From an uncultured Gammaproteobacteria bacterium (GTDB taxonomy: Bacteria > Patescibacteriota > Patescibacteriia > UBA11705 > JABHMO01), in assembly GCA_964590105.1 (NCBI GenBank), contig CAZPYM010000003.1:72179-136178 (forward strand): 64,000 bases of DNA, read 5' to 3'. The notes below the pieces were generated by a model. It ran no database searches, was not told where the DNA came from, and worked only from the letters and a program-made list of their open reading frames with translations. The stretch's first letter is position 1; every line of letters begins with the position of its first letter. Of this stretch, positions 322-63,712 are shown piece by piece. Position numbers and translations under genes: made by a program.

Positions 322-2082
322 TTAATCCCCGTTTTTAATGCTGATAACAATTTTGTCGCCCTCATTCACACCGGAAAGGATTTCAATGTTACCATTTGAG
401 CCGCGTAGTCCGGTTTTAACTTCAGTTTCCTTGAAATCAATTCCGTCAGCATTCAGAATTCGTACAATTTTTTTATTGTCTTTTTTTAATATCGCCCGTT
501 GAGGAACGCTAATGACATTGTCTTTTTTGTTTGTGAGAATATCCAGGTCAGCGGTCATGCCCGGTTTAATGAGTTCGTTTTCTTCTGAAAATTCAAAAGT
601 TACTTTGTAGGTGGGTACATTATCAATTATAGTTTCAGCCGGGTCAATCAAGATTACTTTGACTCCGAATTCGGTGTCGCTTGAATAAGCGTCAAGAGTA
701 ACTTTGGCCGGGTCATTAATTTTTATATCGGCAATATCAACTTCCGGCACATTGGCTTCAATTTGATATTTGGCTTCAGAAATAATTTTTATAATGTTTG
801 AATTTGCCGCCACGATCTCGCCCAGTTTAGTGTCTACGAGAGTGACAATGCCGACAATTGGCGAATGAATCGTGGTTTTGCTGATTTGCGCCTGATAATT
901 TTGCACATTGGCTTCGGCATATTTAATCTGCGCTTCCTGCGAGGCCGCGTTTGCCTCGGCTTGTTTTACTTTTGCTTCTTGCGCAGCGAGCTGTTCGGCC
1001 GTGTAGCCGGATTTGGTTATTTGGAGTTCGTCTTTTGTCGTGGCCAAAGTATTTTGTGCCGTAGTAATGCTAGCCCCGGCCGTAAAGATGGCGCTTTCAT
1101 TGGTGGCCTTTTGAACGGCCAGCGCCTGCCCTTTGGCGGACAGGGCGGAAATTTCAGCATTAATATTTGTTTTTTCCGTATTAATACTCAGAATGTCAGC
1201 GCTGCTCATGGTGACGGATATCGGCAGATTGCCAAGTGATGTTTTGATTGTTTGCAAAGTTGATTTGACCGAAGCGAGCGTGGAGTCAATATTGGCGCGC
1301 GTCGGATCAGCTTTTGTGCTGTTGACTAGGCCTTTGGCGCCACCGGACAATTGCGATAAACTTGTCTTGGACCAGAAGCCGGCGCCGGATTGACCGAGCA
1401 GGCTCAAAACAATAGCTTCTTTTTCAGAGGCGAATTTTATTCCATTCTGATCAGTTGAATAAAAAGAAGTTGTTTGAATATTATTGAGAGTATTGAGAGT
1501 GTTTTCGGCAACATTAATGGAAGCAGCAAGAGCATTCAGCGTGCCGGCATAGTCCTCGTCAAGATCCGCTTCAGCCTTGGATTTAACGTTTAATAAATTG
1601 TTTTCCGCGTCAGTCAAGGATTTTTGCGCATTGCTGACAGCTGTTTCGGCCAGCTGGATTTCTTCTTGTTTGGCGCCGGCTTTGTATTCATCCATTTTTG
1701 CCTGTTCGCTATCGCGGGCGGCCTGGTATTGGAGGAGCAGAGCGCGGGCGCTGTCAACGCTGGCACCGGCTTGCTTTAATTGAGCCGCCAGATCAGCGTT
1801 GCTCTCGCTGGCCAGCAATTGACCAGCTTTAACTTTGTCTCCAACTTTTATTGGCAGGAAAGAAATCTTGCCTGATTTTTCAAAGGCGAGCGACACTTCT
1901 TCGGCCGGTTTGACTGTGCCGGTAACGCTGATTTCCTGAATCAGTTCTCCTTTTTCCGCGACAACAAGATCATATTCCGGCGAGGTGGGCTTTTTTGTAA
2001 AATAAATTCCGCCGGCAATGAGCGCGATGATTATGATTAAAATAATGTAAAAACTTTTTTTCTTGTAAAACATAAAATACAA
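322..2082 (-). CDS. HlyD-family membrane-fusion / efflux adaptor protein with a long coiled-coil
   Basis: 586 aa. It has an N-terminal TM helix, a biotinyl-lipoyl-like beta segment (VKAGQLLA), a long Ala/Gln-rich coiled coil and a C-terminal beta-barrel typical of MacA/HlyD adaptors. It is paired with the downstream ABC ATPase. Confidence 0.75.
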   Translation of the reverse strand: MYFMFYKKKSFYIILIIIIALIAGGIYFTKKPTSPEYDLVVAEKGELIQEISVTGTVKPAEEVSLAFEKSGKISFLPIKVGDKVKAGQLLASESNADLAAQLKQAGASVDSARALLLQYQAARDSEQAKMDEYKAGAKQEEIQLAETAVSNAQKSLTDAENNLLNVKSKAEADLDEDYAGTLNALAASINVAENTLNTLNNIQTTSFYSTDQNGIKFASEKEAIVLSLLGQSGAGFWSKTSLSQLSGGAKGLVNSTKADPTRANIDSTLASVKSTLQTIKTSLGNLPISVTMSSADILSINTEKTNINAEISALSAKGQALAVQKATNESAIFTAGASITTAQNTLATTKDELQITKSGYTAEQLAAQEAKVKQAEANAASQEAQIKYAEANVQNYQAQISKTTIHSPIVGIVTLVDTKLGEIVAANSNIIKIISEAKYQIEANVPEVDIADIKINDPAKVTLDAYSSDTEFGVKVILIDPAETIIDNVPTYKVTFEFSEENELIKPGMTADLDILTNKKDNVISVPQRAILKKDNKKIVRILNADGIDFKETEVKTGLRGSNGNIEILSGVNEGDKIVISIKNGD

Positions 2083-17682: not shown

Positions 17683-18261
17683 ATGATTAAAAAAAAGGAC
17701 AATAAAAAAGGATCAAGAGCAGGGAAAAAGCCAGAGCAAGAGTTTGAGCAAAAAATAATTGATTTAGCGAGAATTACTAGAGTAATGGCCGGTGGTAAAA
17801 GAATGCGTTTTCGCGCCTGTGTTTGCATCGGAGACAAAAAGGGTCGAGTAGCCATTGGATTGGCCAAGGGTGCTGACGTAACGGTAGCGGTTAACAAGGC
17901 GGTTAATAAGGCTCAAAAGCAGTGGATTACTGTACCGATAATTAATGAAACTATTCCGCACGAGATCCGTACTAAACTTGGGGCAGCCAGATTACTTCTA
18001 AAACCAGCGCCAACCGGAACAGGTGTACGCGCCGGTGGCGCAGTTCGCGTGGTCCTGGAATTGGCCGGTGTGCCGAATATTGTCGGAAAGATCATGGGGA
18101 CAAATAACAAGGTGAATAATGTAAAAGCATTGATCAGCGCTTTGTCGTCATTTAATCCTGACGCGATTAGAAAAGCCAGAAATAAACAACAAAAGAAAGA
18201 TAATAAAAATAAAGCTGAAGTGACTGAAGATAGCGTGAAGAAAGAAGAGGATAAGGAATAA
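17683..18261 (+). CDS. rpsE: 30S ribosomal protein S5 with a C-terminal extension
   Basis: ...ITRVMAGGKRMRFRACVCIGDKKGRVAIGLAKG... The next gene is rplO, so there is no intervening L30 gene. Confidence 0.93.
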   Translation: MIKKKDNKKGSRAGKKPEQEFEQKIIDLARITRVMAGGKRMRFRACVCIGDKKGRVAIGLAKGADVTVAVNKAVNKAQKQWITVPIINETIPHEIRTKLGAARLLLKPAPTGTGVRAGGAVRVVLELAGVPNIVGKIMGTNNKVNNVKALISALSSFNPDAIRKARNKQQKKDNKNKAEVTEDSVKKEEDKE

Positions 18262-18319
18262 AAATTAATAAAACAAGAAATTAAGAAAATAATAAGGAAT
18301 AAGAAAATAAGAATATAAT

Positions 18320-18793
18320 ATGGCATTGGGACTAGACAAAATCGGAACGAGAAAAAAGACCAAGAAGAGAGTTGGCAGGGGCAATGCTTCCGGCCACGGC
18401 ACTTATAGTTGCCGCGGATTGAAAGGGCAACGGTCACGTTCTGGCGGTAAAGGAGGATTGAAGCTAAAGGGATTTAAAAAGAATTTACTGAATATTCCTA
18501 AAATGAAAGGCATGAAGAGCAAAAGACCCAAAAACCAACTTGTAAACATTTCCTCTTTAGAAAAATTTAGCGCGGAAGAAAAAGTCACCCCCGGTAGCTT
18601 GTTTGAAAAAGGGCTTATTGATACAATGAATTTGCCGGTGAAAATATTGACTGACAAGAAAAATAAACCAATGACAAAAAAAGTAGAAATTTATAATTGT
18701 TTTGTGTCTGATTCAGCAAAAAAACTAATTGAAGCGGCCGGAGGAAAAATTATTGACCTCGAGACTCGAGAAAACAAATCCGAGAAAGTTTAA
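18320..18793 (+). CDS. rplO: 50S ribosomal protein L15
   Basis: MALGLDKIGTRKKTKKRVGRGNASGHGTYSCRGLKGQRSRSGG... Confidence 0.92.
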   Translation: MALGLDKIGTRKKTKKRVGRGNASGHGTYSCRGLKGQRSRSGGKGGLKLKGFKKNLLNIPKMKGMKSKRPKNQLVNISSLEKFSAEEKVTPGSLFEKGLIDTMNLPVKILTDKKNKPMTKKVEIYNCFVSDSAKKLIEAAGGKIIDLETRENKSEKV

Positions 18794-22732: not shown

Positions 22733-22805
22733 TTGGGCTCTTGACATTGTTGTTTCTTTGATGTAACTTTAAATGTTGGAATAGTTCATTTTAACGGAGG
22801 GAACA

Positions 22806-23585
22806 ATGAAACGTCTCGGATATATGCTGTTGATTTTTGTTTTGAATGGCTGTCTGCAAAAGCCGTCTCCCTGGGTGCCGTCAGGCGACTGGGCGGGAGA
22901 AGTCCTTGCAGAAGCAGTAATTACTATTCATCCTGATCTGGAGGGGGAAGCCGAACCGTTGGATCTCCTGGATCAGACAGAGGACAAGCATCGGCAGGAA
23001 AATGAAGACTTGTCTACGAAGGACAAGGATCTGTCGGTGGAAGTTTCGGATCTTGATTTCGTGGAACAATGCACTTCTGACAATGAACTTGCAGCAGACA
23101 CGCCGGAAGTGGACTTTGAAACAGATGACGACACGGCAGATGTCTCCACTTTCGATGTCCCAGTCTGCCCGCCGGGCTATGTCTGGAGCAAAACGCAGGG
23201 TAAGTGCGTTTCATTCTGCGCGGCTGATCAGTATTATGAAGCAAACCTGGGCAAGTGCGTATACTACCCGTGTTGTGACCTTTCTGGTAGCTGGGAATTA
23301 AGCATACTTGATTCAGACACCATGCTCTTCACGATTTATCAGTTGACGATCAATCAGTTGATATCGTACTTGGAAGGCGATGCAAAATGTGTTTCGCTGT
23401 CGGAAGAGGCCAAGTGCTATGGCCTGCTGGAAGATAAAAAGTTCACGCTGAACTGTGTGAGCAATGAATACACACTTGTGCTCACGTCTGGCATTACGAC
23501 AGTAACTTCATTTATTGGATTTTACAGTTACCAGTACACTGATGGTAATTTTAAAAATGGTTCGTTTAACGTAAAAAAATTATAA
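22806..23585 (+). CDS. lipoprotein with an acidic variable N-terminal region and a conserved Cys-rich C-terminal domain (paralog 1)
   Basis: Lipobox-like signal MKRLGYMLLIFVLNGC. A D/E-rich region is followed by a C-terminal domain of about 150 aa with at least 8 Cys. That domain is near-identical to the next gene. Confidence 0.7.
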   Translation: MKRLGYMLLIFVLNGCLQKPSPWVPSGDWAGEVLAEAVITIHPDLEGEAEPLDLLDQTEDKHRQENEDLSTKDKDLSVEVSDLDFVEQCTSDNELAADTPEVDFETDDDTADVSTFDVPVCPPGYVWSKTQGKCVSFCAADQYYEANLGKCVYYPCCDLSGSWELSILDSDTMLFTIYQLTINQLISYLEGDAKCVSLSEEAKCYGLLEDKKFTLNCVSNEYTLVLTSGITTVTSFIGFYSYQYTDGNFKNGSFNVKKL

Positions 23586-23592
23586 ACAAAAC

Positions 23593-23622
23593 AGGTCCGA
23601 TCATCCGGGCCGTTTTATTTTG
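23593..23622 (+). terminator. Rho-independent terminator after lipoprotein paralog 1
   Basis: ggtccg-atcatc-cgggcc hairpin followed by gttttattttgtt. An identical element follows paralog 2 at 24415-24445. Confidence 0.6.
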
Positions 23623-23725
23623 TTAATAATATGTGGCGAGGTCTTATTAATGGTTGTTGACATTTTTATTTCGCTATTGTAAAGTAATTGGTAATAATTG
23701 TTCTTTACCCAACAAGGAGAACGCG

Positions 23726-24406
23726 ATGAAGTATTTTGTATGTTTCTTTCTGGCCCTCATTTTCAGTTCATGTATAAAACGAGTTGATTGGGGTGAGTTT
23801 GTCCCTTTGGACGAGCTTTCAGTTGATTCTGATATTAATGTTGGCGAAACAGAGATTTTTCAGCTATTGGATGGTAGCGGTGAGCAACACGAGAATTTGT
23901 TTGATTCTATCACGTCTGAGTTATTGGATACAAATATTGCCCCCCTGAGAGAGATAAAAGAGACCGTATCCGTTGATGTGCTGGTTTGTGCTCCGGGCTA
24001 TGTCTGGAGCGAAGCGCAGGGCAAGTGCGTTTCATTCTGCGCGGCTGATCAGTATTATGAAGCAAAACTGGGCAAGTGCGTATACTACCCGTGCTGTGAT
24101 CTTTCCGGCGACTGGGAATTAAGCATACTTGATTCAGACACAATGCTTTTTACGATCTATCAGGTAAAGATCAATCAGCTGACATCGTACTTGGAAGGTG
24201 AGGCAAAATGTGTTTTACCGTTGGAACAGGCGGATTGTTACGGTTTGCTTGAAGACAAAAAATTCGCGTTTAATTGCGTGAGCAATGATTACACGCTGGT
24301 GCTCACGTCCGGACTGGCGACAGTAACTTCATTTATTGGATTTTACAGTTACCAGTACACTGATGGTAATTTTAAAAATGGTTCGTTCAACGTAAAAAAA
24401 TTATAA
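23726..24406 (+). CDS. lipoprotein paralog 2 (Cys-rich C-terminal domain)
   Basis: Start MKYFVCFFLALIFSSC (lipobox). AAGGAG RBS. The C-terminal 150 aa are about 85-90% identical to the previous gene, and there is long nucleotide identity as well. Confidence 0.7.
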   Translation: MKYFVCFFLALIFSSCIKRVDWGEFVPLDELSVDSDINVGETEIFQLLDGSGEQHENLFDSITSELLDTNIAPLREIKETVSVDVLVCAPGYVWSEAQGKCVSFCAADQYYEAKLGKCVYYPCCDLSGDWELSILDSDTMLFTIYQVKINQLTSYLEGEAKCVLPLEQADCYGLLEDKKFAFNCVSNDYTLVLTSGLATVTSFIGFYSYQYTDGNFKNGSFNVKKL

Positions 24407-24476
24407 ACAAAACAGGTCCGATCATCCGGGCCGTTTTAATTTTATTAATAAATTGTATATAAAAATTAATTTTAAA

Positions 24477-24505
24477 AAGAAAAAGAGGCGAATGTTCGCC
24501 TCTTT
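24477..24505. terminator. bidirectional terminator hairpin (serves minus-strand gene 24530..25708)
   Basis: aagaggcga-atgt-tcgcctctt with T-runs on both strands. Confidence 0.6.
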
Positions 24506-24529
24506 CTTTGTTGTGACAGAGTTATTTTT

Positions 24530-25708
24530 CTATCTCTTTTCTTTTGCCTTGGCCCTGACCGCCTGGCACCAGGGCAAGCCCCAGACGTACCAGGGGCAAG
24601 CGTTTTCCGGCTTGGACGCGCACATGCCCATCTGACAGAGCGCGGCGCGAGCCGGTTCAAAGGTCTCCGGACAAACCGCCACCTTGATCAGCTCGCAGAT
24701 ATCCGCGAGCGGGATCATGGTCGGCGTGGTGGCGGGAGCAGTGATGCTCCCGTTCAGCAGGAACTGGCCTTCGTGATGGAAATACCACACACCGGAGGGG
24801 CCCATGCCTTCGTCCGACAGTTCCCGCCAGTTGTTTACGATGACCTTGCCGCGAACCTTCTGCTCTTCATAGCGCAAGACTCGCGCCAGGGTGAAAAGCT
24901 TCAGGTTGGCACGGCGGGCCGTGTGAATGGTCACATGACCGGCCGGTCGTCTCTGGACAACGATGTCAGCGTTGGCGCCGTCCTTGAAGCGGCCGGCGCG
25001 GCCGATTTCGTTGTTGTCCGATTCGATGGCCAGGAGAACAAGCGTGCGCTCGTTCGGGCCCTTGATCTTGCTGATCTGGCCCTTTTCTTTGATTTCCTCG
25101 AGCGCGGCCTTGAAGGCCTCGTCCTGCGCCTTTTCCGCGTCAGCGGTATAGGCCAGCCAGTTCGCCGCGGAAATCTCAGGCTTGTTCGGATTCTGCTCGA
25201 CGAGTAGTTTGCCGAAATAGTCCTTGCCGAACTCCTTGGTTTTCTTCTCCGCCCGAATCTTGGCGCGGATGGCCACAAGGGCCCAGTCGATGATCTCGGC
25301 GGTCTGTTCCGAGAAAACCCGGTGCAGCATGTTCACGTACGTGGCCAGCCCACCAGGCTGATCGCGTCCGTGGAGGTCATTGTCCAGGACATAGGACAGA
25401 ACCTCCTTCAGTTCCTCGTTGTCCCGGACGCCGAGTGCCCTCGCCACCAGTGTGGCCGCGCATTCGTCCTCTTTCTTCGCCTCCCCGTTGGCGGGATGCT
25501 CATCAAACTCGCCACCCAGCACTCCGACGTGGATGATGCCGTGTGGACAGTGCGTTTTTAGAAACTCCTTGGTGCCGTACAGCTCAAGGAGGGAGATTGC
25601 CGCGATTTCCTCCACGTGGAGGGCGGCGTGAGTGAGAAACCAGATCTTCCGGCCTGCGACCGTGATCTGGAATCGGATGAAATTCCCTTGTCTTTCTATT
25701 GTTTTCAA
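24530..25708 (-). CDS. hypothetical protein (392 aa) on a GC-rich island. Apparent TTG start. His-rich N-terminal region and a Cys-cluster C-terminus.
   Basis: Long ORF with strong GC3 bias in about 57% GC DNA, a G-rich RBS and a terminator. Motifs THAALHVEE, HCPHGIIHVGVLGGEFDEH and 5 Cys in the last 45 aa. I cannot assign a family. Confidence 0.55.
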   Translation of the reverse strand: MKTIERQGNFIRFQITVAGRKIWFLTHAALHVEEIAAISLLELYGTKEFLKTHCPHGIIHVGVLGGEFDEHPANGEAKKEDECAATLVARALGVRDNEELKEVLSYVLDNDLHGRDQPGGLATYVNMLHRVFSEQTAEIIDWALVAIRAKIRAEKKTKEFGKDYFGKLLVEQNPNKPEISAANWLAYTADAEKAQDEAFKAALEEIKEKGQISKIKGPNERTLVLLAIESDNNEIGRAGRFKDGANADIVVQRRPAGHVTIHTARRANLKLFTLARVLRYEEQKVRGKVIVNNWRELSDEGMGPSGVWYFHHEGQFLLNGSITAPATTPTMIPLADICELIKVAVCPETFEPARAALCQMGMCASKPENACPWYVWGLPWCQAVRAKAKEKR

Positions 25709-25935
25709 TTTTCCCCCCTATTTTGGTTGTCAATTTGCAAACTCTACGAAATCGTATTATAGCATATAAAAATTTAAATGTCAAGCTGTTTTAGCTATTT
25801 TTAGCTAAAATTGCTATTTATATTAAGTTCCAAAAAGACCATTGACAAGAATAAAAAAATTGGGTAAGCTTATTTGATATATTTGTTCATTTATTGAAAT
25901 TTCTAAACGTTGTTCGAGCTTTACAAGGAGGCGCA

Positions 25936-26808
25936 ATGGCAGGAAAAAGCAAAACCGGTTTTATCGAACGAGCTATGGCTAAAGTGGCCAAGCAGATTGA
26001 AAAATTGATTGAAGAAGAAGGAAAAATGCGGATGCGTTGGGTAAAGGGTTACCACCGCATGCAACGCGCGGCGCAGGGTTTGACAAAGATTACGAGACTG
26101 AAAACCAAGAGAGCTGAAAGTTTTGGGAAGATTGTCAATTCCTGGATGCAGGAATCAATAGGCATGACCAAGGCGCGTGACGCCAAGCGAGCGCAAAGGG
26201 AAGCCAAAGAAAAAGAGCTTCAGGAATTGAAGTTACAATTGGTTAAACTGCAGGCTGAAATCAACCGCGTGACCGGTGAAACCGATGAAATCGTGGACCA
26301 GGTTTTCAGTCTGAATGACGCAGTGGTGGCGGCGCTCGAGTCGCGGCAGGCATATCTCAGCAATCATGTGTTTCATCGTTTGATCGGCGACAATGGGGAG
26401 ATGCGCAGTCAGATCACGTTTGACAGCAAGGACGGTTTGCGCCGGGTGGTGGTTATGGTGAATCATATAACCAAGGTTCAGACCGACTTGGCTAACGCGG
26501 CCATGCTCGAGATTGATAAGTTTTTCACCCGCTTTGGCGTTGAAACCGCAGAAGACAGGCTGGAACCGGAAGTGCAGGCGCTGTACAAGCTGACGCGCGA
26601 GATCTTGATTTCACGCCAGACATTCAAGGTCGGACGGGATTTGTATCGGTTCCTCGGAATTGAGATTGATGAAGGCATTTTCCCCGAATTGTACAAGGCT
26701 CAGATGCTCCTGCGGCGCAGTCTGCGCAGTGAGAAAACCAATTCATACATTCGCTTGTCCAAACGAGCAAACATGAATGACAAGTGGCAGGCATTGCCCC
26801 TGCACTAG
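25936..26808 (+). CDS. hypothetical coiled-coil protein (291 aa) on a GC-rich island, divergent from the previous gene
   Basis: AGGAGG RBS 7 nt upstream of ATG 25936. N-terminal K/R/E coiled coil, then a C-terminal globular part. High GC3. Followed by a strong terminator. Confidence 0.55.
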   Translation: MAGKSKTGFIERAMAKVAKQIEKLIEEEGKMRMRWVKGYHRMQRAAQGLTKITRLKTKRAESFGKIVNSWMQESIGMTKARDAKRAQREAKEKELQELKLQLVKLQAEINRVTGETDEIVDQVFSLNDAVVAALESRQAYLSNHVFHRLIGDNGEMRSQITFDSKDGLRRVVVMVNHITKVQTDLANAAMLEIDKFFTRFGVETAEDRLEPEVQALYKLTREILISRQTFKVGRDLYRFLGIEIDEGIFPELYKAQMLLRRSLRSEKTNSYIRLSKRANMNDKWQALPLH

Positions 26809-26913: not shown

Positions 26914-26989
26914 GCTCGTATAGCTCAGTGGTTAGAGCACCGCCCTTATAAGGCGGGGGTCGATGGTTCAAATCCATCTACGAGCACCA
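26914..26989 (+). tRNA. tRNA-Ile with anticodon UAU (as read from the loop CTTATAA)
   Basis: 76 nt cloverleaf: acceptor GCTCGTA/TACGAGC, D arm GCTC-AGTGGTTA-GAGC, anticodon stem CCGCC/GGCGG, T arm GATGG-TTCAAAT-CCATC, encoded CCA. The scaffold closely resembles bacterial tRNA-Ile(GAU) but has TAT in the anticodon. Confidence 0.75.
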
Positions 26990-30844: not shown

Positions 30845-33800
30845 ATGGAGATACCCAAAGCCTACGATCCGAAAGAGCATGAAAGCCGGATTTATAAAAT
30901 GTGGGAAGAGGCCGGGCTTTTTAATCCGGACAATTTGGAGCCTAAATCCAAAAAGCATTTTTCCATTGTTTTGCCGCCGCCAAATGTTACCGGCACACTG
31001 CACCTGGGGCATGCGGCCATGCTCGCAATAGAAGATTTAATGGTCCGTTACAAAAGGATGAATGGTTTTGATACCCTCTGGATGCCTGGCACTGATCACG
31101 CGGCGATTGCCACGCAAAACGTGGTTGAAAAAAAGCTTTACAAGGAAGAAAAAAAGACCAGGCACGATCTGGGTCGTGAGAAATTTTTAAAAAAAGTTGA
31201 GCAGTATGTGGAAGGCTCAAAAAATGTTATTCATAATCAATTGCGCAAAATGGGTTCAAGCCTGGACTGGAGCCGCGAAGCGTATACTCTCGATGAAGTC
31301 AGAAGCAAGGCAGTAAAAAAGGTTTTCAAACAAATGTATGAAGACGGGCTGATTTATCGGGGTTATCGGATTGTCAATTGGTGTCCGCGCTGCCATTCAA
31401 CGCTCGCGGACGATGAGGTTGATTACAAAGAAGAAAAAGCCAAGATTTACACTTTTAAATACGATAAAAATTTTCCATTTGCTATCGCCACAACGCGGCC
31501 GGAAACCAAACTTGGGGACACGGCAGTGGCTGTGCATCCTGACGACAAGCGCTATGCAAAATATATCGGTAAAACATTTGTCGCTGATTTCTGTGGTGTT
31601 AAGTTGAATATAAAAGTAATTGCCGATGATCAGGTTGAAAAAGATTTTGGCACCGGCGCGCTTGGCGTAACCCCGGCGCATAGTTTGATTGACTACGAAA
31701 TGGCGCAAAAAAATAAATTGCCGGTGATTAAAGTTATTGACGAGGATGGAAAAATAACGGTGGCTGGCGGAAAATTTCAGGGATTAAGCGCGGAACAGGC
31801 AAGAGAAAAAATTGTTGAAGAATTAAAAAAGCAGGGGCTTTTGGAAAAGCAGGAAGAGAATCAGCACAATTTATCTGTTTGTTACCGTTGTAAATCAGTA
31901 GTGGAGCCTTTGCCGAGCGAGCAATGGTTTATCAGTATAAGTTCAAAGTTCAAAGTTAAAAGTGAAAAGTTGAGAAAAATAATCGGGAAAAAAGAGGCAA
32001 GCTTGAAGGAAATTTCGCTCGCCGTGGTAAAGAGCGGGTCGATAAAAATAATTCCAGAGCGTTTTGAAAAAATTTATTATCATTGGATGGAAAATTTGCA
32101 TGACTGGTGTATTTCCCGGCAGATTTGGTTTGGGCACAGGATCCCTGTTTGGTACAAAAAGCAAAAACAAATTATTGTTTTGCGGCACGGACAGGCGGAA
32201 AGCAATGCCCGAGATCAGCTGAATTCCGATATTTTGCGGAATCATTTTCACTTGACCGTAGAGGGTAGGGAGCAGGCGGCCGCGGCGGCGGAAGAGCTGC
32301 AAAAAGAAAAAATTGACATTATTTTTTGTTCTGATTTCGAACGGGCAAAACAAACCGCCAAAATAGTTGCCGACAAATCGGGGATTAAGCAAATTATTGA
32401 AGACGCCAGACTCAGGGAAGTGGGAGTGGGGGATTTCGAAGGCAAATCCGATATGGACTTTACCAAATTTCGTCAGCAAAACTTTGACAAGTGGCATAAA
32501 GGAAATCCGCATAACATCGAGTCCTTTGTTGAATTAAGAAGCCGTGTATTTAATTTTCTTGACGAAATAAAACAAAAGTATGGAGATAAAAAGATTTTAA
32601 TGGTAACGCACGGCGATGTGGCGCGAGTGGCGCAGGCATACGGAAAAATTTTATCGGATAAAGAAATTTATGGCCTTGATTATCCGGATACCGGAAAGTT
32701 TTATCGCGTTGATTTAAATCAAAAAACATCTGGAATCGAACTTAGTTTTCGTAATCGAAAAATATTTGAAGCGATTAAATCCGGCAGCAAAACCATTGAA
32801 ACCAGAGCTTTGAATCCTGAAGAGCCGGATCGTTATTTTGGCAATATTAAAGGCGGCGATCAGATAATTTTGAATTATAAGCAAGGGGAGTATATTTTAG
32901 AAAGTTTAAAATCAAAAGTCAAAGCGGCGAGGCGGTACAAAACCATTGAAGAATTGTTAGCCAAGGAAAAGATGTCTAAAATTTTTCCCGGCAAAAACAT
33001 TGATTATAAAAAATCCTATTCTGATCTGGTGCCCGGAAATTTGGAAAAAATAAGCAAGAACGGAATAATAGCTTTTGAGCTTGGAAAAGTTGAAAAGTAT
33101 AATAAAAATATCACGCTTCGCGTTTCTGAAGAAGAACTGCCGGCTGCCGAATGGAAACAAGATGAGGATACTCTTGATACCTGGTTTTCTGCAGGTCTTT
33201 GGACTTTCAGTACGCTCTTGCCGAAGGATTGGGACGGAAAAGAATTTAAATCCAAGGATTTGGAACGATTTCATCCAACGACCGTGCTGGAAACCGGTTA
33301 TGACATTTTGTTTTTCTGGGTGGCGAGGATGATACTCATGACCACTTATGCGACGGGCGAAATACCTTTTGAAACAGTTTATCTGCACGGCCTGATTCGC
33401 GACAAAGACGGCGACAAAATGAGCAAATCCAAACCAGAGACGGCGATTGATCCGGTTGAAGCCGGCAATAAATATGGATTTGACGCGGTGCGTTTGAGCT
33501 TGCTTATCGGCAATACGGCGGGCAATGATATTCGGCTTTATGATGAAAAGATTGAGGGGTACAGGAATTTTGTTAATAAGTTGTGGAATATTAGTCGGTT
33601 TGTGTTGCAAAATAACAAATTACAAGACACAAATTACAAGCAAATTACAAATAACAAATTACAAACAGTTGCATTGACTTTAGCGGATAAGTGGATACTT
33701 TCGCGATTCAATAAGTTAAAATGCGAGGTAAATAAATTGCTGGATGAATATAATTTTTCACAGGCCGGCGAGATTTTGCGGGAATTTACCTGGAATGATT

Positions 33801-34483
33801 TTGCCGACTGGTATTTGGAAATTTCAAAAGTTGCCCTTCGGCAAGATCAGGGTGACAATCGAAATTTAATTTTGAATTCAATTTTTCGGGAATTGCTGAA
33901 ATTGTGGCATCCTTTTGTGCCGTTTGTGACAGAGGCTGTTTGGTCCCTCGCTATGCTCGGGATGACACAGCAAGCAAAAAGTATTATGGTTTCTGATTGG
34001 CCAGCGGTCGAAAAGGGATTAATTGATGAAAAAGCGGAAAAAGGATTTGAAAAAATTCAAGAAATAATTATTAAAATCAGAAATTTGCGGGCTGAATACA
34101 AAGTCAATCCGGGGAAGAAGATTTCTGTTTCCATCAAAGGCGCTTCAATTGGCGAAAATGAAATAGTTGTAAAAACCTTAGCTCGTCTGGAAAAAATTAC
34201 TTACGTAAAAATAAAACCGGAAAAAGCAGCCGGCGCGGTTGTCGGTAAAAGGGAGATTTATTTGTTGTTATCAGATTTGGTTGATGTTGATAAAGAAAAA
34301 GAGAGACTGGAAAAAGAAAAAGCCGACCTTGAAAAATATTGCTTCGGATTGGATAAAAAACTTCAGAATAAAGAGTTTACGAAAAATGCTCCGGTGGCCG
34401 TGGTTGACGGAGAGCGGGCAAAACTCACGGAGGCGGAAGAAAAATTAGGAAAAACAAATACGCAATTAAGTGAATTAAAATAA
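30845..34483 (+). CDS. valS: valyl-tRNA synthetase carrying an in-frame histidine-phosphatase (PGAM-like) + ASCH domain insertion
   Basis: HLGHA (HIGH), CP1 editing domain (TTRPETKLGDTAVAVHPDD), DWCISRQIWFGHRIPVWY, KMSKS, and a C-terminal coiled coil. Between WY (about 32154) and QDEDTLDTWFS (about 33158) about 330 extra residues contain IVLRHGQAESN and VTHGD (histidine phosphatase) and G-SKTIETR (ASCH). Length is 1212 aa against roughly 880 typical. Confidence 0.9.
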   Translation: MEIPKAYDPKEHESRIYKMWEEAGLFNPDNLEPKSKKHFSIVLPPPNVTGTLHLGHAAMLAIEDLMVRYKRMNGFDTLWMPGTDHAAIATQNVVEKKLYKEEKKTRHDLGREKFLKKVEQYVEGSKNVIHNQLRKMGSSLDWSREAYTLDEVRSKAVKKVFKQMYEDGLIYRGYRIVNWCPRCHSTLADDEVDYKEEKAKIYTFKYDKNFPFAIATTRPETKLGDTAVAVHPDDKRYAKYIGKTFVADFCGVKLNIKVIADDQVEKDFGTGALGVTPAHSLIDYEMAQKNKLPVIKVIDEDGKITVAGGKFQGLSAEQAREKIVEELKKQGLLEKQEENQHNLSVCYRCKSVVEPLPSEQWFISISSKFKVKSEKLRKIIGKKEASLKEISLAVVKSGSIKIIPERFEKIYYHWMENLHDWCISRQIWFGHRIPVWYKKQKQIIVLRHGQAESNARDQLNSDILRNHFHLTVEGREQAAAAAEELQKEKIDIIFCSDFERAKQTAKIVADKSGIKQIIEDARLREVGVGDFEGKSDMDFTKFRQQNFDKWHKGNPHNIESFVELRSRVFNFLDEIKQKYGDKKILMVTHGDVARVAQAYGKILSDKEIYGLDYPDTGKFYRVDLNQKTSGIELSFRNRKIFEAIKSGSKTIETRALNPEEPDRYFGNIKGGDQIILNYKQGEYILESLKSKVKAARRYKTIEELLAKEKMSKIFPGKNIDYKKSYSDLVPGNLEKISKNGIIAFELGKVEKYNKNITLRVSEEELPAAEWKQDEDTLDTWFSAGLWTFSTLLPKDWDGKEFKSKDLERFHPTTVLETGYDILFFWVARMILMTTYATGEIPFETVYLHGLIRDKDGDKMSKSKPETAIDPVEAGNKYGFDAVRLSLLIGNTAGNDIRLYDEKIEGYRNFVNKLWNISRFVLQNNKLQDTNYKQITNNKLQTVALTLADKWILSRFNKLKCEVNKLLDEYNFSQAGEILREFTWNDFADWYLEISKVALRQDQGDNRNLILNSIFRELLKLWHPFVPFVTEAVWSLAMLGMTQQAKSIMVSDWPAVEKGLIDEKAEKGFEKIQEIIIKIRNLRAEYKVNPGKKISVSIKGASIGENEIVVKTLARLEKITYVKIKPEKAAGAVVGKREIYLLLSDLVDVDKEKERLEKEKADLEKYCFGLDKKLQNKEFTKNAPVAVVDGERAKLTEAEEKLGKTNTQLSELK

Positions 34484-50123: not shown

Positions 50124-50152
50124 TTGACAAATATGTAAATCTGTGCTATACT
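50124..50152 (+). promoter_or_regulatory. consensus sigma70 promoter (TTGACA-17-TGcTATACT) for the GC-rich membrane-protein gene
   Basis: Perfect -35, 17-nt spacer, extended -10. About 50 nt upstream of ATG 50206. Confidence 0.65.
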
Positions 50153-50205: not shown

Positions 50206-50682
50206 ATGAAAAAGGAAATGCTGTGGTTTTACGGCTCGTTGGCAGTGGTTGCGCTGGTAGCACTCGTTGTCGGGCTGAATGCGGAGGTTGTTTTCACCGC
50301 GAAGCTCACCGGCCTGTTGGTCGCCTTGATTGTCGGCACGGTTGTGGGAGCCTGGCGCGACGGAACCAGCTATCGCGCTGCGAGTGAGGGGGATCCTCTG
50401 ATCGTCCCCAAGTTGTTCATGTTCGCAATGGCGGCCATTTCAATCCTTGTCGGTGCGTATCTCGTTGACTTGATCAACACCTACGGGGTGCGATTCTTTT
50501 CACAAGGGGTTTCAATCTGTTTTTCTGGAGTAATGGTGGTTTTCTTGCTTGCCACTGGGGCCAGCATCGGGATGTACTGGAATGACCGTCCCGCCGGTAC
50601 CACCGTCCGCACAGCCATCGCCACCTGCGCCATCTACCTCCTGCCGGCGATCATCCTCACGCCGATGGTGATTTACATCTAA
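50206..50682 (+). CDS. hypothetical membrane protein (158 aa, about 4 TM) encoded on a GC-rich (about 58%) islet
   Basis: High GC and GC3 unlike neighbouring genes. Own promoter and terminator (cgact-acac-agtcg + T-run at about 50727-50751). Confidence 0.55.
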   Translation: MKKEMLWFYGSLAVVALVALVVGLNAEVVFTAKLTGLLVALIVGTVVGAWRDGTSYRAASEGDPLIVPKLFMFAMAAISILVGAYLVDLINTYGVRFFSQGVSICFSGVMVVFLLATGASIGMYWNDRPAGTTVRTAIATCAIYLLPAIILTPMVIYI

Positions 50683-61645: not shown

Positions 61646-63712
61646 ATGAAAAAAGCATATTTATTAATCGGATTTTTAATCATTAGTTTTGTCATAACTA
61701 ATAGCTCACTTGCGGCGGCTGATCCTTATTATTACAAACAGTGGTATCTGCCGCAAATAAAAGCACCTGAAGCCTGGACTGTTACCAAGGGGAGCACCAA
61801 TATTATTGTGGCGGTTTTGGATACAGGACTCGACATGGAGCATCCTGATATCAAAGATAACATTTGGCGGAACCTTGATGAGATTCCCGGCGACAAAATT
61901 GACAATGATGGAAACGGTTATATTGATGATGTGAACGGCTGGGACTTCGTTGACAAGAACAACACTCCGTCTCCAAAATTAAGCGGAAAATATTCTGTGC
62001 CGGCTGTTGATCATGGCACTTTTGTGGCGGGATTAATTTCTGCGGTTCACGACAATGGCCAAGGAATAAAAGGCGTTACCGCCAATGTGAAAATTATGCC
62101 TCTGCGCGTTTTGGATTCAGAGGGCTATGGTACTTCAGCCACAGTTACTTCGGCAATGGATTACGCGATAAAAAATGGCGCTGATATTATTAATCTTAGT
62201 TTTGGCGGATATGATTATAGTAGCAGTCTAAAAAATAAAATCAGCGAAGCGTATAGCAAAGGCATTTTGATAGTGGCGGCGGCGGGCAATATGGCTGATT
62301 CTACGGCCAGCACTGGAGTTGATTTGACTGATAAACCGATTTATCCGATTTGTTATGATCAGCAATTTACTGAAAATAAAATTCTGGGAGTAGTGGCCAG
62401 CACCAAGCAAAATAAGCCGGCTGCTTTTTCCAATTACGGTAAGGGCTGTATTGACATTGCCGCTCCGGGCGAGGATTTTATCGGACTTGTTTATCATGAT
62501 AATGAAAAAGCAAATTTAAGCGCCTATTACGAAGAGGGCTGGAATGGCAATTCTTTTTCCGCGGCTTTGGTTTCAGGAGCGGCGGCTTTATTAAAATCAG
62601 TAAAACCGGAATTAACGCCAAAGCAATTGATTGAAACATTAATGCAGGAAAGCGGCCTGCTCATCATTGACAATCCCAAATATAATGGTAAGGTAGGTGC
62701 TGGACTATTGGACATCAAAAAGGCTTTGGACAAAGTGTATACTCCGGCAGTGACTACGACGCCGGTTGTCGCGACACCGGTAACCGGAACGACCCCAACA
62801 CCGATTGTTTCCAATGCGCAAATTATTGTTTCGACAAAAGCCAAGGGCCTTAGTTCAGTCATGATTTACAATTCAAGTTTAACTAGAATCAATGAAATAG
62901 AAGTGTTAAAGGGAGAAGAATTTCAAGGATTGAATGTTCAGGTGGCGGATGTTAATGGCGGCGATAAGGAAATCATAGTTGGAGCGGCCAGGGGCGCCAC
63001 GCCTTTTGTGCGAGTGCTTGATTCAAACGGCACAATTGTCAGTAGTTTTCTCGGCTTTGACGCCAATTTCAAGGGCGGCGTGGAAGTGGCGGCTGGCGAT
63101 ATTGACGCGGATGGCCAGGTGGAGATTATTGTCGCTCCGGAATCAGGCTATGCTCCGGTAATCAAAATTTTTGATTTAAATGGTAAACTTAAAAAAGAAT
63201 TTTACGCTTATAATGAAAGCTTTACAAACGGAATAAACGTGGCGGTGGGAGATGTTGACGCGGACGGCAAGCCGGATATAGTAGTGGCGCCGCACCAGGG
63301 TTTGATGCCCAAAATAAAAATTTTTGACGGGCAGGGAACTCTGAAAAAAGAACTGGTTGTTTACAGCCCGCAATTTACCGGCGGCGTAAACATTGCTCTT
63401 GCCAATGTTAATGGTACGGGGCCGCTTGAAATCATCACTGGCGCAGGACCTGGCGGCGGGCCTCATGTGCAGGTGCTGACTTATCAGGGAACAAAGCTGG
63501 CCAGCTTTATGGCTTACAGTGCGAGTTTTACCGGCGGAGTGGAAGTGGCGGCCGGCGACTGGAATGGCGACGGAAATATTGAAATCATTACCGCGGCCGG
63601 ACCGGGCGGCGGGCCGCACGTAAAGATTTTTAATAGTTGGGGCGGCTATTTGAATCAATTTTTTCCATTACCAAACACTTTTACGAATGGAATTAATATA
63701 GCGATTAAATGA
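61646..63712 (+). CDS. secreted subtilisin-like serine protease (S8) with a C-terminal FG-GAP beta-propeller repeat domain
   Basis: Signal peptide. D (VAVLDTGLD), H (HGTFVAG) and S (GNSFSAALVSG) triad. Thr/Pro linker, then about 6 repeats of ...AAGDIDADGQVEIIVAP...P.IKIFD... Confidence 0.8.
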   Translation: MKKAYLLIGFLIISFVITNSSLAAADPYYYKQWYLPQIKAPEAWTVTKGSTNIIVAVLDTGLDMEHPDIKDNIWRNLDEIPGDKIDNDGNGYIDDVNGWDFVDKNNTPSPKLSGKYSVPAVDHGTFVAGLISAVHDNGQGIKGVTANVKIMPLRVLDSEGYGTSATVTSAMDYAIKNGADIINLSFGGYDYSSSLKNKISEAYSKGILIVAAAGNMADSTASTGVDLTDKPIYPICYDQQFTENKILGVVASTKQNKPAAFSNYGKGCIDIAAPGEDFIGLVYHDNEKANLSAYYEEGWNGNSFSAALVSGAAALLKSVKPELTPKQLIETLMQESGLLIIDNPKYNGKVGAGLLDIKKALDKVYTPAVTTTPVVATPVTGTTPTPIVSNAQIIVSTKAKGLSSVMIYNSSLTRINEIEVLKGEEFQGLNVQVADVNGGDKEIIVGAARGATPFVRVLDSNGTIVSSFLGFDANFKGGVEVAAGDIDADGQVEIIVAPESGYAPVIKIFDLNGKLKKEFYAYNESFTNGINVAVGDVDADGKPDIVVAPHQGLMPKIKIFDGQGTLKKELVVYSPQFTGGVNIALANVNGTGPLEIITGAGPGGGPHVQVLTYQGTKLASFMAYSASFTGGVEVAAGDWNGDGNIEIITAAGPGGGPHVKIFNSWGGYLNQFFPLPNTFTNGINIAIK

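What the first reader, a model, noticed from the sequence alone, without database searches (positions are those of the whole stretch)
22740..24450. Tandem duplication of a secreted Cys-rich lipoprotein module, with divergent acidic N-termini and conserved promoter and terminator
Two adjacent genes encode lipoproteins (lipobox Cys at residues 16 and 17) whose C-terminal roughly 150 aa (CPPGYVWS..QGKCVSFCAADQYYEA.LGKCVYYPCCDLSG.WELSILDSDTMLFTIYQ...) are nearly identical at both protein and nucleotide level. The N-terminal regions are unrelated, Asp/Glu-rich and low-complexity.

Each copy has a similar TTGACA-type promoter and an identical terminator (ggtccgatcatccgggcc). The whole unit of promoter, gene and terminator was therefore duplicated, and the N-terminal parts then diversified or were swapped.

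Variable-head, conserved-disulfide-domain surface lipoproteins are good candidates for host-attachment or antigenically variable surface proteins in an episymbiont.
Basis: seen in the sequence. Interest (0 to 1): 0.6.

Follow-up and report, generated by a model that had tools for sequence, protein, structure and literature searches.

The report
Tandem lipoprotein genes homogenised by gene conversion
Two neighbouring genes in a small, probably symbiotic bacterium encode membrane-anchored surface proteins of an undescribed family, and their shared tail is kept alike by copy-and-paste recombination between the two genes; this is a real but fairly ordinary duplication, not a variable-antigen system.

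Summary
Gene A (22806-23585) and gene B (23726-24406) both encode lipobox proteins with Cys16. They share a 476-nt block (87.6% nt identity, 86% over 140 aa) and an identical terminator.

Each gene has its own TTGACA-17-TAnnnT promoter. This promoter layout is found at all nine family loci examined.

The proteins belong to a very small uncharacterised family: about 19 members among 1.84 billion representatives, with no Pfam, NCBIfam or PDB match. Each has a lipid anchor, a polyanionic, probably disordered stalk, two Cys hairpins, a PCCD motif and a confidently predicted 8-stranded calycin-like barrel with an invariant GxW.

A sister genome shows that the N-terminal regions are orthologous, so the duplication is old. 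The barrel region groups by genome (43 sites against 6), which indicates patchy gene conversion.

The "variable head" reading fails. The heads are the conserved part between the two genomes. The barrel region is saturated at synonymous sites (pS 0.75-0.83, against 0.355 for RecO). Seven contigs from six samples are identical across the locus.

Function is inferred only: a binding barrel displayed on an acidic tether. A cytoplasmic ORFan with GC3 of 0.76 lies next to a family lipoprotein in 6 of 6 loci.

The parts
22741..22769 (+). Promoter of gene A: TTGACA, 17-nt spacer, TAACTT
   Evidence: Pattern match (8 sites in the window against 0.64 expected). It is conserved in the sister genome (L030). 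The same layout occurs at all nine family loci.
22796..22800 (+). Ribosome-binding site GGAGG of gene A
   Evidence: Read directly from the sequence. GGAGG also lies upstream of the ATG at seven of the nine family loci; gene B and L028 have AAGGAG instead.
22806..23585 (+). Gene A, 259 aa. Signal peptide aa 1-15; lipobox LNG|C with Cys16 (22851-22853); acidic stalk aa 17-120 (22854-23165); two Cys hairpins plus CC aa 121-157 (23166-23276); 8-stranded barrel aa 158-259 (23277-23582)
   Evidence: AF2 model with pLDDT 91.7. Seven independent contigs are identical here.
23594..23621 (+). Intrinsic terminator of gene A: 6-bp stem, 6-nt loop, T tract
23657..23685 (+). Promoter of gene B: TTGACA, 17-nt spacer, TAAAGT
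   Evidence: It is conserved in L012 of the sister genome.
23714..23719 (+). Ribosome-binding site AAGGAG of gene B
   Evidence: Read directly from the sequence.
23726..24406 (+). Gene B, 226 aa. Signal peptide aa 1-15; lipobox FSS|C with Cys16 (23771-23773); acidic stalk aa 17-87 (23774-23986); Cys hairpins plus CC aa 88-124 (23987-24097); barrel aa 125-226 (24098-24403)
24415..24442 (+). Intrinsic terminator of gene B, with a stem-loop identical to that of gene A
23154..23629 (+). Copy 1 of the shared block: end of stalk, Cys hairpins, barrel and terminator
   Evidence: blastn 87.6% over 476 nt against 23975-24451. Direct repeat D1 with spacing 821.
23975..24451 (+). Copy 2 of the shared block
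23497..23616 (+). Most recent conversion tract: 120 nt with one mismatch to 24318-24437, spanning the last barrel strands, the stop codon and the terminator
   Evidence: permutation P = 2e-5. The sister genome has several synonymous differences in the same stretch, so the identity is not forced by selection.
24530..25708 (-). Convergent neighbour: a 392-aa cytoplasmic ORFan protein (GC 59%, GC3 0.76). It lies next to a family lipoprotein at every locus seen. Its membership of the same functional unit is not established
   Evidence: Weak fold hits to DHH-type phosphoesterases.

Best explanation
**Shown**
- Two adjacent, independently transcribed genes encode paralogous members of a very small, uncharacterised lipoprotein family.
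- Each protein has a type-II signal peptide with a lipobox Cys, then a polyanionic stalk.
- After the stalk come two short Cys hairpins (CPxGYxW..KCV, then C..QYYE..GKCV), a PCCD motif, and a confidently predicted 8-stranded up-and-down barrel of calycin type with an invariant GxW on its first strand.
- The duplication is older than the split from a sister genome. Single-copy relatives show it is specific to this lineage.
- The promoters and stalks of A and B have diverged freely.
- The 3' ~385 nt (second hairpin, barrel, terminator) has been homogenised repeatedly, in patches, by intragenomic gene conversion. This happened independently in each genome.

**Inferred**
- The proteins are lipidated and anchored in the outer leaflet of the cell membrane.
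- The acidic stalk is disordered and acts as a flexible, self-repelling tether (about 104 aa in A, 71 aa in B). It holds the disulfide-stabilised barrel away from the membrane.
- The barrel binds a ligand, either a small molecule or a component of a partner cell's envelope.
- The two copies present the same binding module on tethers of different length and base motif. A keeps the conserved C-L-x-K-P-x-P-W-x-P motif after the lipid Cys; B has lost it.
For: **Gene structure and transcription signals:**

**Lipobox and stalk across the family:** among 20 members scanned, the 16 in which the scan located a lipobox have stalks of 57-174 aa, 23-36% D/E, net charge -13 to -44. Two of the other four show a lipobox by eye and two look N-terminally truncated. 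Alignment A3 gives the family-wide architecture.

**Fold:**
- The AF2 model has pLDDT 91.7 and pTM 0.79, with 4 hairpin strands plus 8 barrel strands.
- The best PDB matches are avidins, lipocalins, FABPs and de novo 8-strand barrels, with TM up to 0.69 on the target.
- G161 and W163 are invariant in 22 sequences.

**Family size:**
- 7 proteins among 5.8 billion.
- 38 hits at E<=1e-3 among 1.84 billion representatives, about 19 of them genuine family members.
- No Pfam, NCBIfam or PDB sequence match.

**Age of the duplication:**
- Relatives carry a single copy at the same recO-adjacent position.
- Heads are orthologous: A1-A2 83.5% nt and B1-B2 92.6% nt, against about 46-51% between A and B heads.

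**Gene conversion:**
- In the 414-nt domain, 43 informative sites group the paralogs of one genome, 6 group orthologs and 4 are crossed. 26 of the 43 are third codon positions.
- Paralog identity is 87% and 86%, against 78% and 76% for orthologs.
- Genome-specific differences extend into the non-coding terminator.
- The identical tracts lie in different places in the two genomes.

**Selection on the barrel:** dN/dS is 0.05-0.13, which indicates a functional, constrained protein.
Against: - The function is not demonstrated. Foldseek E-values never reach 1e-3, so the calycin assignment rests on topology and the GxW motif.
- Gene A has Asn at lipobox position -2, which is atypical. Lgt and LspA were not seen in the window, and the rest of the genome could not be examined.
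- The sister genome is represented only by three contigs shorter than 1 kb from one metagenome. That A2 and B2 sit in one genome is therefore an inference from the shared sample, the recO-A2 overlap and the shared barrel type.
- Conversion alone does not explain why the barrel region is far more diverged between genomes than the flanks.
Confidence: 0.6

Rival explanations
1. The N-terminal acidic regions are variable heads of antigenically variable or host-attachment lipoproteins, and the Cys domain is a constant scaffold.
For: The A and B N-termini differ strongly within one genome (28% aa identity over the aligned part). The proteins are predicted to be surface-anchored. Several assemblies break at or around the locus: the 594-kb contig behind L003 ends at window 23927 and L004-L006 are 2.0-2.3 kb. 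That could reflect the repeat or hidden heterogeneity.
Against: - Heads are the conserved part between sister genomes (B 89.5% aa; pS 0.16-0.26, at or below the RecO baseline of 0.355).
- Seven contigs from six samples are identical.
- No simple-sequence repeats lie in the genes, no inverted repeats flank the promoters, and the window has no silent cassettes.
- Acidic stalks with unconserved sequence but conserved charge and length range occur in every family member. That is the signature of a linker.
Confidence: 0.08
2. A plain duplication without gene conversion. The C-terminal domain looks alike only because purifying selection is strong there, while the disordered N-terminus drifted.
For: dN/dS in the domain is low (0.05-0.13). 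Disordered linkers do evolve fast.
Against: - Selection on the protein cannot make synonymous and non-coding sites group by genome: 43 sites against 6, 26 of the 43 at third codon positions, plus the terminator stem, loop and indel differences.
- Paralogs are closer to each other than orthologs are, although the heads show that the duplication predates the split.
- Mismatches are clustered (P = 2e-5).
Confidence: 0.04
3. The barrel is a strain-specific specificity cassette. Deeply diverged barrel alleles circulate in the population, by import through recombination or by long-term balancing selection as with OspC-type surface lipoproteins. Each genome then spreads its allele to both tethered copies by conversion.
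For: - Barrel-coding nt 91-414 are saturated at synonymous sites between sister genomes (pS 0.75 and 0.83). RecO has 0.355, the heads 0.16-0.26 and the first 90 nt of the domain 0.26-0.35. Fisher p = 8e-8 and 1e-10.
- pN is 2.6 times that of RecO.
- Fixed amino-acid differences cluster in one loop, GITTVTSFIG against GTTMSSSVSG (strand map).
- The arrangement differs in the sister genome.
Against: - Only two genomes are available.
- dN/dS is low, so there is no sign of positive selection.
- No variation is seen among six samples of this population.
- A third, unseen divergent paralog acting as conversion donor would give the same pattern.
Confidence: 0.18
4. The proteins are structural envelope components. 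The polyanionic stalk is the functional part, acting in cation binding, wall spacing or an electrostatic brush, and the barrel is merely a stable cap.
For: High negative charge is the most conserved property of the stalk across the family. Strong canonical promoters suggest abundant expression.
Against: - The barrel and its 8 Cys, GxW and PCCD motifs are the conserved, selected and homogenised part.
- The barrel also occurs at the C-terminus of a 723-aa protein with a different Cys-rich N-terminal array (P0022). This argues that the barrel is an autonomous functional module.
Confidence: 0.1

Closest known systems
Calycin superfamily (avidin/streptavidin, lipocalins including the bacterial lipoprotein Blc, fatty-acid-binding proteins)
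   Same: A predicted 8-stranded antiparallel up-and-down barrel of about 100 aa. These are the best structural neighbours in the PDB. There is an invariant G-x-W at the start of the first barrel strand, which I recall as the calycin signature. Like Blc, the barrel is carried on a lipoprotein anchor.
   Different: No sequence-profile match to any Pfam, NCBIfam or PDB entry. Foldseek E-values are no better than 5e-3. The multi-Trp biotin pocket of avidins is absent. The family has a double Cys hairpin, a PCCD staple and a long acidic stalk that these families lack.
Neisseria-type surface lipoproteins with a C-terminal 8-strand barrel (TbpB, fHbp and related Slam substrates)
   Same: The architecture is lipid anchor, flexible linker, then beta-barrel. 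TbpB C-lobe chains appear among weak Foldseek matches (ranks 31, 35 and 50). Surface-lipoprotein genes of this kind are known, from general knowledge, for modular allelic variation and recombination.
   Different: No sequence relationship. No Slam (DUF560) gene was seen among the window ORFs scanned against Pfam. The host organism probably lacks an outer membrane. The barrel is much smaller, and the stalk is polyanionic and far longer.
Concerted evolution of duplicated bacterial genes by gene conversion (classic case: tufA/tufB of Salmonella; also tpr genes of Treponema)
   Same: Paralogs within a genome are more alike than orthologs. There is a mosaic of identical tracts, and homogenisation extends beyond coding constraint.
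   Different: Conversion covers only the 3' two-thirds of the unit and stops at a boundary inside the Cys module. The converted segment is more diverged between genomes than the flanks, unlike the highly conserved tuf genes.
Phase- or antigen-variable lipoprotein families (Mycoplasma Vlp/Vsa, Borrelia Vls)
   Same: Tandem paralogous lipoprotein genes, each with one conserved part and one divergent part.
   Different: Those systems have a conserved 5' end or signal peptide and a variable C-terminal repeat region, plus a switching device (homopolymer tract, invertible promoter or silent cassettes). Here the polarity is reversed and no switching device was found.
Chitin-binding Peritrophin-A domain (Pfam CBM_14, PF01607)
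   Same: The first hairpin CPxGYxW....KC resembles positions 30-45 of the 53-position profile. 5 of 22 members give sub-threshold hits.
   Different: The score of 18.2 bits is below the gathering threshold of 22.1. Only 16 residues match, and the full 6-Cys CBM14 pattern is absent.

Membership tests
Bacterial lipoproteins (type-II signal peptide, Lgt/LspA substrates) | A positively charged n-region, a hydrophobic h-region, and a lipobox [LVI][ASTVI][GAS]-C within about the first 35 residues | tested here: met
   A: MKRLGYMLLIFVLNG|C. B: MKYFVCFFLALIFSS|C. Cys16 in both. A lipobox Cys is present in all family members with a complete N-terminus. Caveat: A has Asn at position -2, which is atypical; its ortholog A2 has LSG|C.
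Bacterial lipoproteins (type-II signal peptide, Lgt/LspA substrates) | The organism encodes Lgt and LspA | not testable with these tools
   Only 64 kb of the genome is available. Neither gene appeared among the window ORFs scanned against Pfam.
Calycin superfamily (lipocalin / avidin / FABP) | A closed 8-stranded (10 in FABP) antiparallel up-and-down beta-barrel | tested here: met
   The AF2 model (pLDDT 91.7) has eight consecutive strands, E46-54 to E134-143. The best PDB neighbours are avidins, lipocalins, FABPs and designed 8-strand barrels. This is a prediction, not an experimental structure.
Calycin superfamily (lipocalin / avidin / FABP) | A G-x-W motif on the first strand, with a basic residue from the last strand packing on the Trp | tested here: inconclusive
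   G161-x-W163 is invariant in 22 of 22 sequences and lies at the start of barrel strand 1. Lys residues are common in the last strand (..FNVKKL) but not invariant. Packing could not be checked because no coordinates were available.
Calycin superfamily (lipocalin / avidin / FABP) | A significant sequence or structure match to a member family | tested here: not met
Phase/antigen-variable lipoprotein systems | A switching device: a simple-sequence tract, an invertible promoter, or silent donor cassettes | tested here: not met
   No tandem repeats lie in the genes or their promoters. No inverted repeats of 12 nt or more flank the promoters. Only two copies of the domain exist in the window. Only P0001 and P0003 carry an NCBI source among all homologs.
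Phase/antigen-variable lipoprotein systems | Sequence variation of the variable part within or between populations | tested here: not met
   Seven contigs from six samples are 100% identical over the locus. The heads are no more diverged than RecO at synonymous sites between sister genomes. Read-level variation could not be examined.
Paralogs under concerted evolution (gene conversion) | Paralogs within a genome are more similar than orthologs between genomes, including at silent and non-coding sites, with mosaic tracts | tested here: met
   Informative sites split 43:6:4. Paralog identity is 87% and 86% against 78% and 76% for orthologs. Terminator differences are genome-specific. Mismatches are clustered, P = 2e-5, and the identical tracts differ between the two genomes.
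Chitin-binding Peritrophin-A (CBM_14) | A Pfam PF01607 match above the gathering score across the 6-Cys domain | tested here: not met
   18.2 bits against a cutoff of 22.1, covering 16 residues only.
Slam-dependent surface lipoproteins | An adjacent or genomic Slam (DUF560) outer-membrane translocon | tested here: not met
   No such domain was seen among the window ORFs scanned. The rest of the genome was not examined.

The most novel reading that the evidence does not exclude
The barrel-plus-terminator segment is a mobile specificity cassette of a partner-recognition lipoprotein. Deeply diverged alleles would be exchanged between related ultra-small bacteria and then copied by gene conversion onto two differently tethered anchors. 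The always-adjacent cytoplasmic ORFan with anomalous GC3 (weakly DHH-like) would form a conserved two-gene module with it. This would be a new kind of host-range or ligand-specificity locus in a CPR-like lineage.
Probability: 0.12. Interest if true: 0.7.

Novelty: new variant of a known kind. Interest (0 to 1): 0.4.

Why it matters
Surface proteins of ultra-small, host-dependent bacteria are almost entirely uncharacterised. This locus defines a compact new lipoprotein architecture (lipid anchor, polyanionic stalk, disulfide hairpins, calycin-like barrel). The barrel domain has a confident structural model, and each gene has a clearly delimited transcription unit.

It is also a clean natural example of partial concerted evolution in a reduced genome that still carries recO next door. 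The segment being homogenised is also the segment most diverged between sister genomes.

If the barrel proves to be a ligand- or partner-binding module, it would give a handle on nutrient scavenging or attachment in these organisms. If not, the finding remains an ordinary lineage-specific duplication.

Tried and rejected
**Family and structure searches**
- Pfam, NCBIfam and a PDB profile search for the family gave nothing apart from a sub-threshold CBM_14 hairpin hit.
- Foldseek against PDB and BFVD gave only generic small barrels, none at E<=1e-3.

**Taxonomy**
- Scans of GTDB species representatives found no relatives, either with the family profile or with RecO. The organism could not be named.
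- CPR affiliation rests only on the missing L30.

**Literature**
- Searches for CPR lipoproteins and lipocalin-like proteins found nothing relevant.
- One paper places a relative's sample, IMG 3300028032, in a landfill study.

**Other checks**
- Rfam around the locus found only the two tRNAs.
- Tandem-repeat and inverted-repeat scans found no switching device.
- No DsbD/thioredoxin gene like the one in L028 is present in the window.

**Ideas considered and rejected**
- That the 50% GC stretch at 24.5-27 kb next to the tRNA genes is a mobile island. Rejected because the 392-aa gene keeps its place beside the lipoprotein in relatives.
- That high GC3 reflects translational selection. Rejected because EF-Tu and ribosomal protein genes have GC3 of 0.34-0.40.
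- An avidin-like biotin pocket. Rejected from the sequence: there is only one invariant Trp.
- That the promoter similarity of A and B is evidence of recent co-duplication. It is no stronger than the similarity to distant orthologs (z 3.2 against 2-3.7), so it reflects the family-wide layout.
Full report
**1. The observation**

The region holds two same-strand ORFs.
- Gene A runs 22806-23585 and encodes 259 aa.
- Gene B is best started at ATG 23726 (226 aa) rather than the mechanical TTG at 23654. AAGGAG lies 6 nt upstream of that ATG. A TTGACA-17-TAAAGT promoter lies inside the longer ORF. Gene callers on independent contigs also give 226 aa.

blastn of the A unit against the whole 64-kb window finds one other copy only: 23154-23629 against 23975-24451, 87.6% identical over 476 nt. 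The repeat finder gives a start-to-start spacing of 821 nt.

The last 140 residues are 86% identical. The preceding parts align only weakly: 22-25% identity by tblastn with E about 0.1, and 28% in a global alignment.

The 18-nt terminator stem-loop is identical in both copies (23594-23611 and 24415-24432) and folds well. The corrections are that Cys16 is the lipobox Cys in both proteins, and that the block is about 87% identical rather than near-identical, except for its last 120 nt.

**2. Transcription units**

TTGACA-N17-TAnnnT occurs 8 times in the window against 0.64 expected. Two of the eight sit 65 and 69 nt upstream of the two start codons.

The same layout is found at all nine family loci for which upstream DNA was available: a perfect -35, a 17-nt spacer, a leader of about 30 nt, then a GGAGG- or AAGGAG-type ribosome-binding site.

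The A and B promoter regions are no more alike (z = 3.2) than A is to distant orthologs (z = 2-3.7). The promoters are therefore homologous in layout but have not been homogenised.

**3. What the proteins are**

A search of 5.8 billion proteins gives 7 hits. An exhaustive HMMER search of 1.84 billion representatives with the family profile gives 38 hits at E<=1e-3, of which about 19 are family members. None has a Pfam domain. Pfam, NCBIfam and a PDB sequence-profile search are all negative.

All members with a complete N-terminus share one architecture:
- a lipobox signal peptide;
- an acidic stretch of 57-174 aa (23-36% D+E, net charge -13 to -44) whose sequence is poorly conserved;
- one or two 15-residue Cys hairpins;
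- a nearly invariant P-C-C-D;
- about 100 residues beginning with an invariant G-x-W.

AlphaFold2 on the domain gives pLDDT 91.7 and pTM 0.79, with two beta-hairpins followed by eight consecutive strands. Foldseek against the PDB returns avidins, lipocalins, fatty-acid-binding proteins, designed 8-strand barrels and TbpB C-lobes. TM is up to 0.69 on the target, but no E-value is below 5e-3. BFVD gives nothing informative.

I therefore call the fold calycin-like on topology and the GxW motif. I do not claim family membership.

The hairpin motif (CPxGxxW/Y....C) also occurs as an isolated repeat in phage-like proteins and in multi-repeat membrane proteins. It produces a sub-threshold CBM_14 hit.

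**4. History of the duplication**

Relatives at 39-48% identity (P0005, P0006, P0007, and the members in L016, L028, L029 and L031) are single-copy on the contigs available. The duplication is therefore lineage-specific.

A sister population in sample ERZ27247124 has orthologs of both genes, A2 on L011 and B2 on L012. Its RecO (L030, 89% nt identity) overlaps the 5' end of L011 by 18 nt, which places A2 in the same position.

Heads are orthologous: A1-A2 83.5% nt and B1-B2 92.6% nt, with A against B about 46-51%. The A head shares the motif C-L-x-K-P-x-P-W-x-P and other anchors with the single-copy relatives. B is a shortened derivative. So the whole unit was duplicated before the two genomes split, and 'swapping' of heads is not needed.

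**5. Gene conversion**

Within the 414-nt domain:
- 43 informative sites unite the two paralogs of a genome, 6 unite orthologs (four of these at the extreme 5' edge) and 4 are crossed.
- 26 of the 43 sites are third codon positions.
- Identity is 87% and 86% for paralogs, against 78% and 76% for orthologs.

The same genome-specific pattern continues into the non-coding terminator. Genome 1 has GGTCCGATCATCCGGGCC in both copies. Genome 2 has GGCCCGATCATACGGG(C/T)C in both, plus a shared indel after the stop codon.

Mismatches are clustered. In this genome the last 120 nt of the block (23497-23616) carry one mismatch (P = 2e-5). In the sister genome the longest identical tract lies elsewhere.

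This is the signature of repeated, patchy intragenomic gene conversion acting independently in each lineage. Purifying selection on the protein (dN/dS 0.05-0.13) cannot produce it.

**6. Which part varies**

With RecO as the local baseline (pS 0.355, pN 0.047), the heads and the first 90 nt of the Cys module are ordinary or low (pS 0.16-0.35). The barrel-coding part, nt 91-414, is saturated between the genomes (pS 0.75 and 0.83; Fisher p = 8e-8 and 1e-10; pN 0.12). Within a genome the same region has pS 0.42-0.45.

The 'conserved' module is therefore the most diverged part between sister genomes. Conversion alone does not explain it. Possible causes are import of a divergent barrel allele followed by spread to both copies, old allele classes, or an unseen third donor copy. 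Two genomes are not enough to decide.

Across seven contigs from six samples this genotype is invariant.

**7. Arrangement in the sister genome**

After its terminator and a further 27 nt that it shares with the downstream region of B2 (similar to the A-to-B spacer of this window), L011 (A2) runs into unrelated sequence containing two copies of AATGTCCTAGTAG. L012 (B2) is followed by another B-type promoter, and the contig begins and ends with the same 47 nt, giving a period of 822 nt. Copy number or order may therefore differ there. With contigs shorter than 1 kb this remains a lead only.

**8. Surroundings**

Upstream is a core block: ribosomal protein genes, SecY, Adk, Map, RuvX and RecO. 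There is no L30 gene between S5 and L15, which is consistent with CPR/Patescibacteria (the link between missing L30 and CPR is from general knowledge).

Downstream, on the opposite strand, is a 392-aa protein with no signal peptide and no family match. It has only six homologs. A lipoprotein of this family is its immediate neighbour in all six of its loci. One of these is L028, where the order and strand differ and archease-RtcB follows.

The gene's GC3 is 0.76 in a genome where EF-Tu and ribosomal protein genes have 0.34-0.40. Its orthologs show the same anomaly, at 0.62-0.78.

An AF2 model of it (pLDDT 72.6) gives only weak matches to DHH-type phosphoesterases: PPX1 and family II pyrophosphatases, E 6e-3 to 0.2. 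The adjacency is striking, but no mechanistic link to a secreted lipoprotein can be proposed from these data.

**9. Mechanism**

Shown:
- two independent transcription units;
- lipobox proteins;
- the domain architecture;
- a confident barrel model;
- an old duplication with ongoing partial conversion;
- purifying selection on the barrel.

Inferred: lipid anchoring in the cell membrane; the polyanionic stalk is disordered and acts as a flexible spacer of about 104 aa (A) or 71 aa (B); and the disulfide-stapled barrel acts as a displayed binding module for a small ligand or a partner-cell envelope component. Overall confidence in this picture is 0.6. Confidence in the specific 'binding module' function is about 0.3.

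**10. Verdict**

This is a real tandem duplication of a new, very narrowly distributed lipoprotein family. Its shared block is explained by gene conversion. The antigenic-variation reading of the N-termini is not supported. Interest is moderate. The unexplained deep divergence of the barrel cassette and the invariant pairing with a compositionally odd ORFan are the points worth following.

Noticed in passing
window 24530-25708 (-): A 392-aa cytoplasmic ORFan (6 homologs in 5.8 billion proteins) has GC 59% and GC3 0.76 in a genome with GC3 of about 0.40. The same anomaly appears in its orthologs. It is the immediate neighbour of a family lipoprotein in 6 of 6 loci, even after rearrangement (L028). 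It has a perfect TTGACA-17-TATAAT promoter at 25784-25756. Fold matches to DHH phosphoesterases are weak.
   Followed up: partly
window 25936-26808 (+) and 50206-50682 (+): Two further ORFs without family matches are compositional outliers (GC3 0.60 and 0.70). Each lies behind a TTGACA-N17-TAnnnT promoter (25842-25870 and 50124-50152).
   Followed up: no
window 30845-34483 (+): The valyl-tRNA synthetase (1212 aa) carries a histidine-phosphatase (His_Phos_1) domain inserted at residues 443-626, E = 1.3e-37. This is an unusual fusion or insertion.
   Followed up: no
window 18261-18320: Only 58 nt separate the S5 and L15 genes, so there is no L30 gene. This is consistent with a CPR/Patescibacteria genome. 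No close relative was found in GTDB species representatives using RecO or the lipoprotein profile.
   Followed up: partly
window 26914-26989 (+): A tRNA-Ile with a genomic TAT anticodon lies directly after the high-GC gene pair and is followed by tRNA-Val(GAC).
   Followed up: no
L012 1-869 and L011 798-933 (sister genome, sample ERZ27247124): The B2 contig starts and ends with the same 47 nt of B-type promoter (period 822 nt), which suggests more than one B-type unit in tandem. A2 is instead followed by unrelated sequence with two copies of AATGTCCTAGTAG.
   Followed up: partly
L003 (594-kb contig ends at window 23927); L004, L005, L006 (2.0-2.3 kb contigs spanning the locus): Several independent assemblies break at or just outside the duplicated block. 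This probably reflects the repeat, but could reflect strain heterogeneity that is invisible in consensus contigs.
   Followed up: no
L017-L027; proteins P0020, P0024: The 15-residue hairpin CPxGxxW(D/S/H)xxxxxC(V/M) occurs on its own as 2-10 tandem repeats. It appears in phage-like proteins of about 555 aa and at least 647 aa, and in Met/His-rich membrane proteins (CPxGYFWHxxMGHCM, possibly metal-binding).
   Followed up: no
L028 89-1306 and 5226-7189: In one distant relative the lipoprotein and 398-aa pair is preceded, two small unannotated ORFs upstream, by a DsbD_TM-thioredoxin fusion gene and followed by archease and RtcB. In L013 the lipoprotein is convergent with RtcB.
   Followed up: partly
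window 24480-24507: A 10-12 bp hairpin (AAAGAGGCGAA..TTCGCCTCTTT) with T tracts on both sides lies between gene B and the convergent 392-aa gene. It looks like a bidirectional terminator.
   Followed up: no
window 61646-63712 (+) and 322-2082 (-): Other envelope or secreted candidates in the window are a subtilase with FG-GAP repeats (688 aa) and a HlyD-type membrane-fusion protein (586 aa).
   Followed up: no
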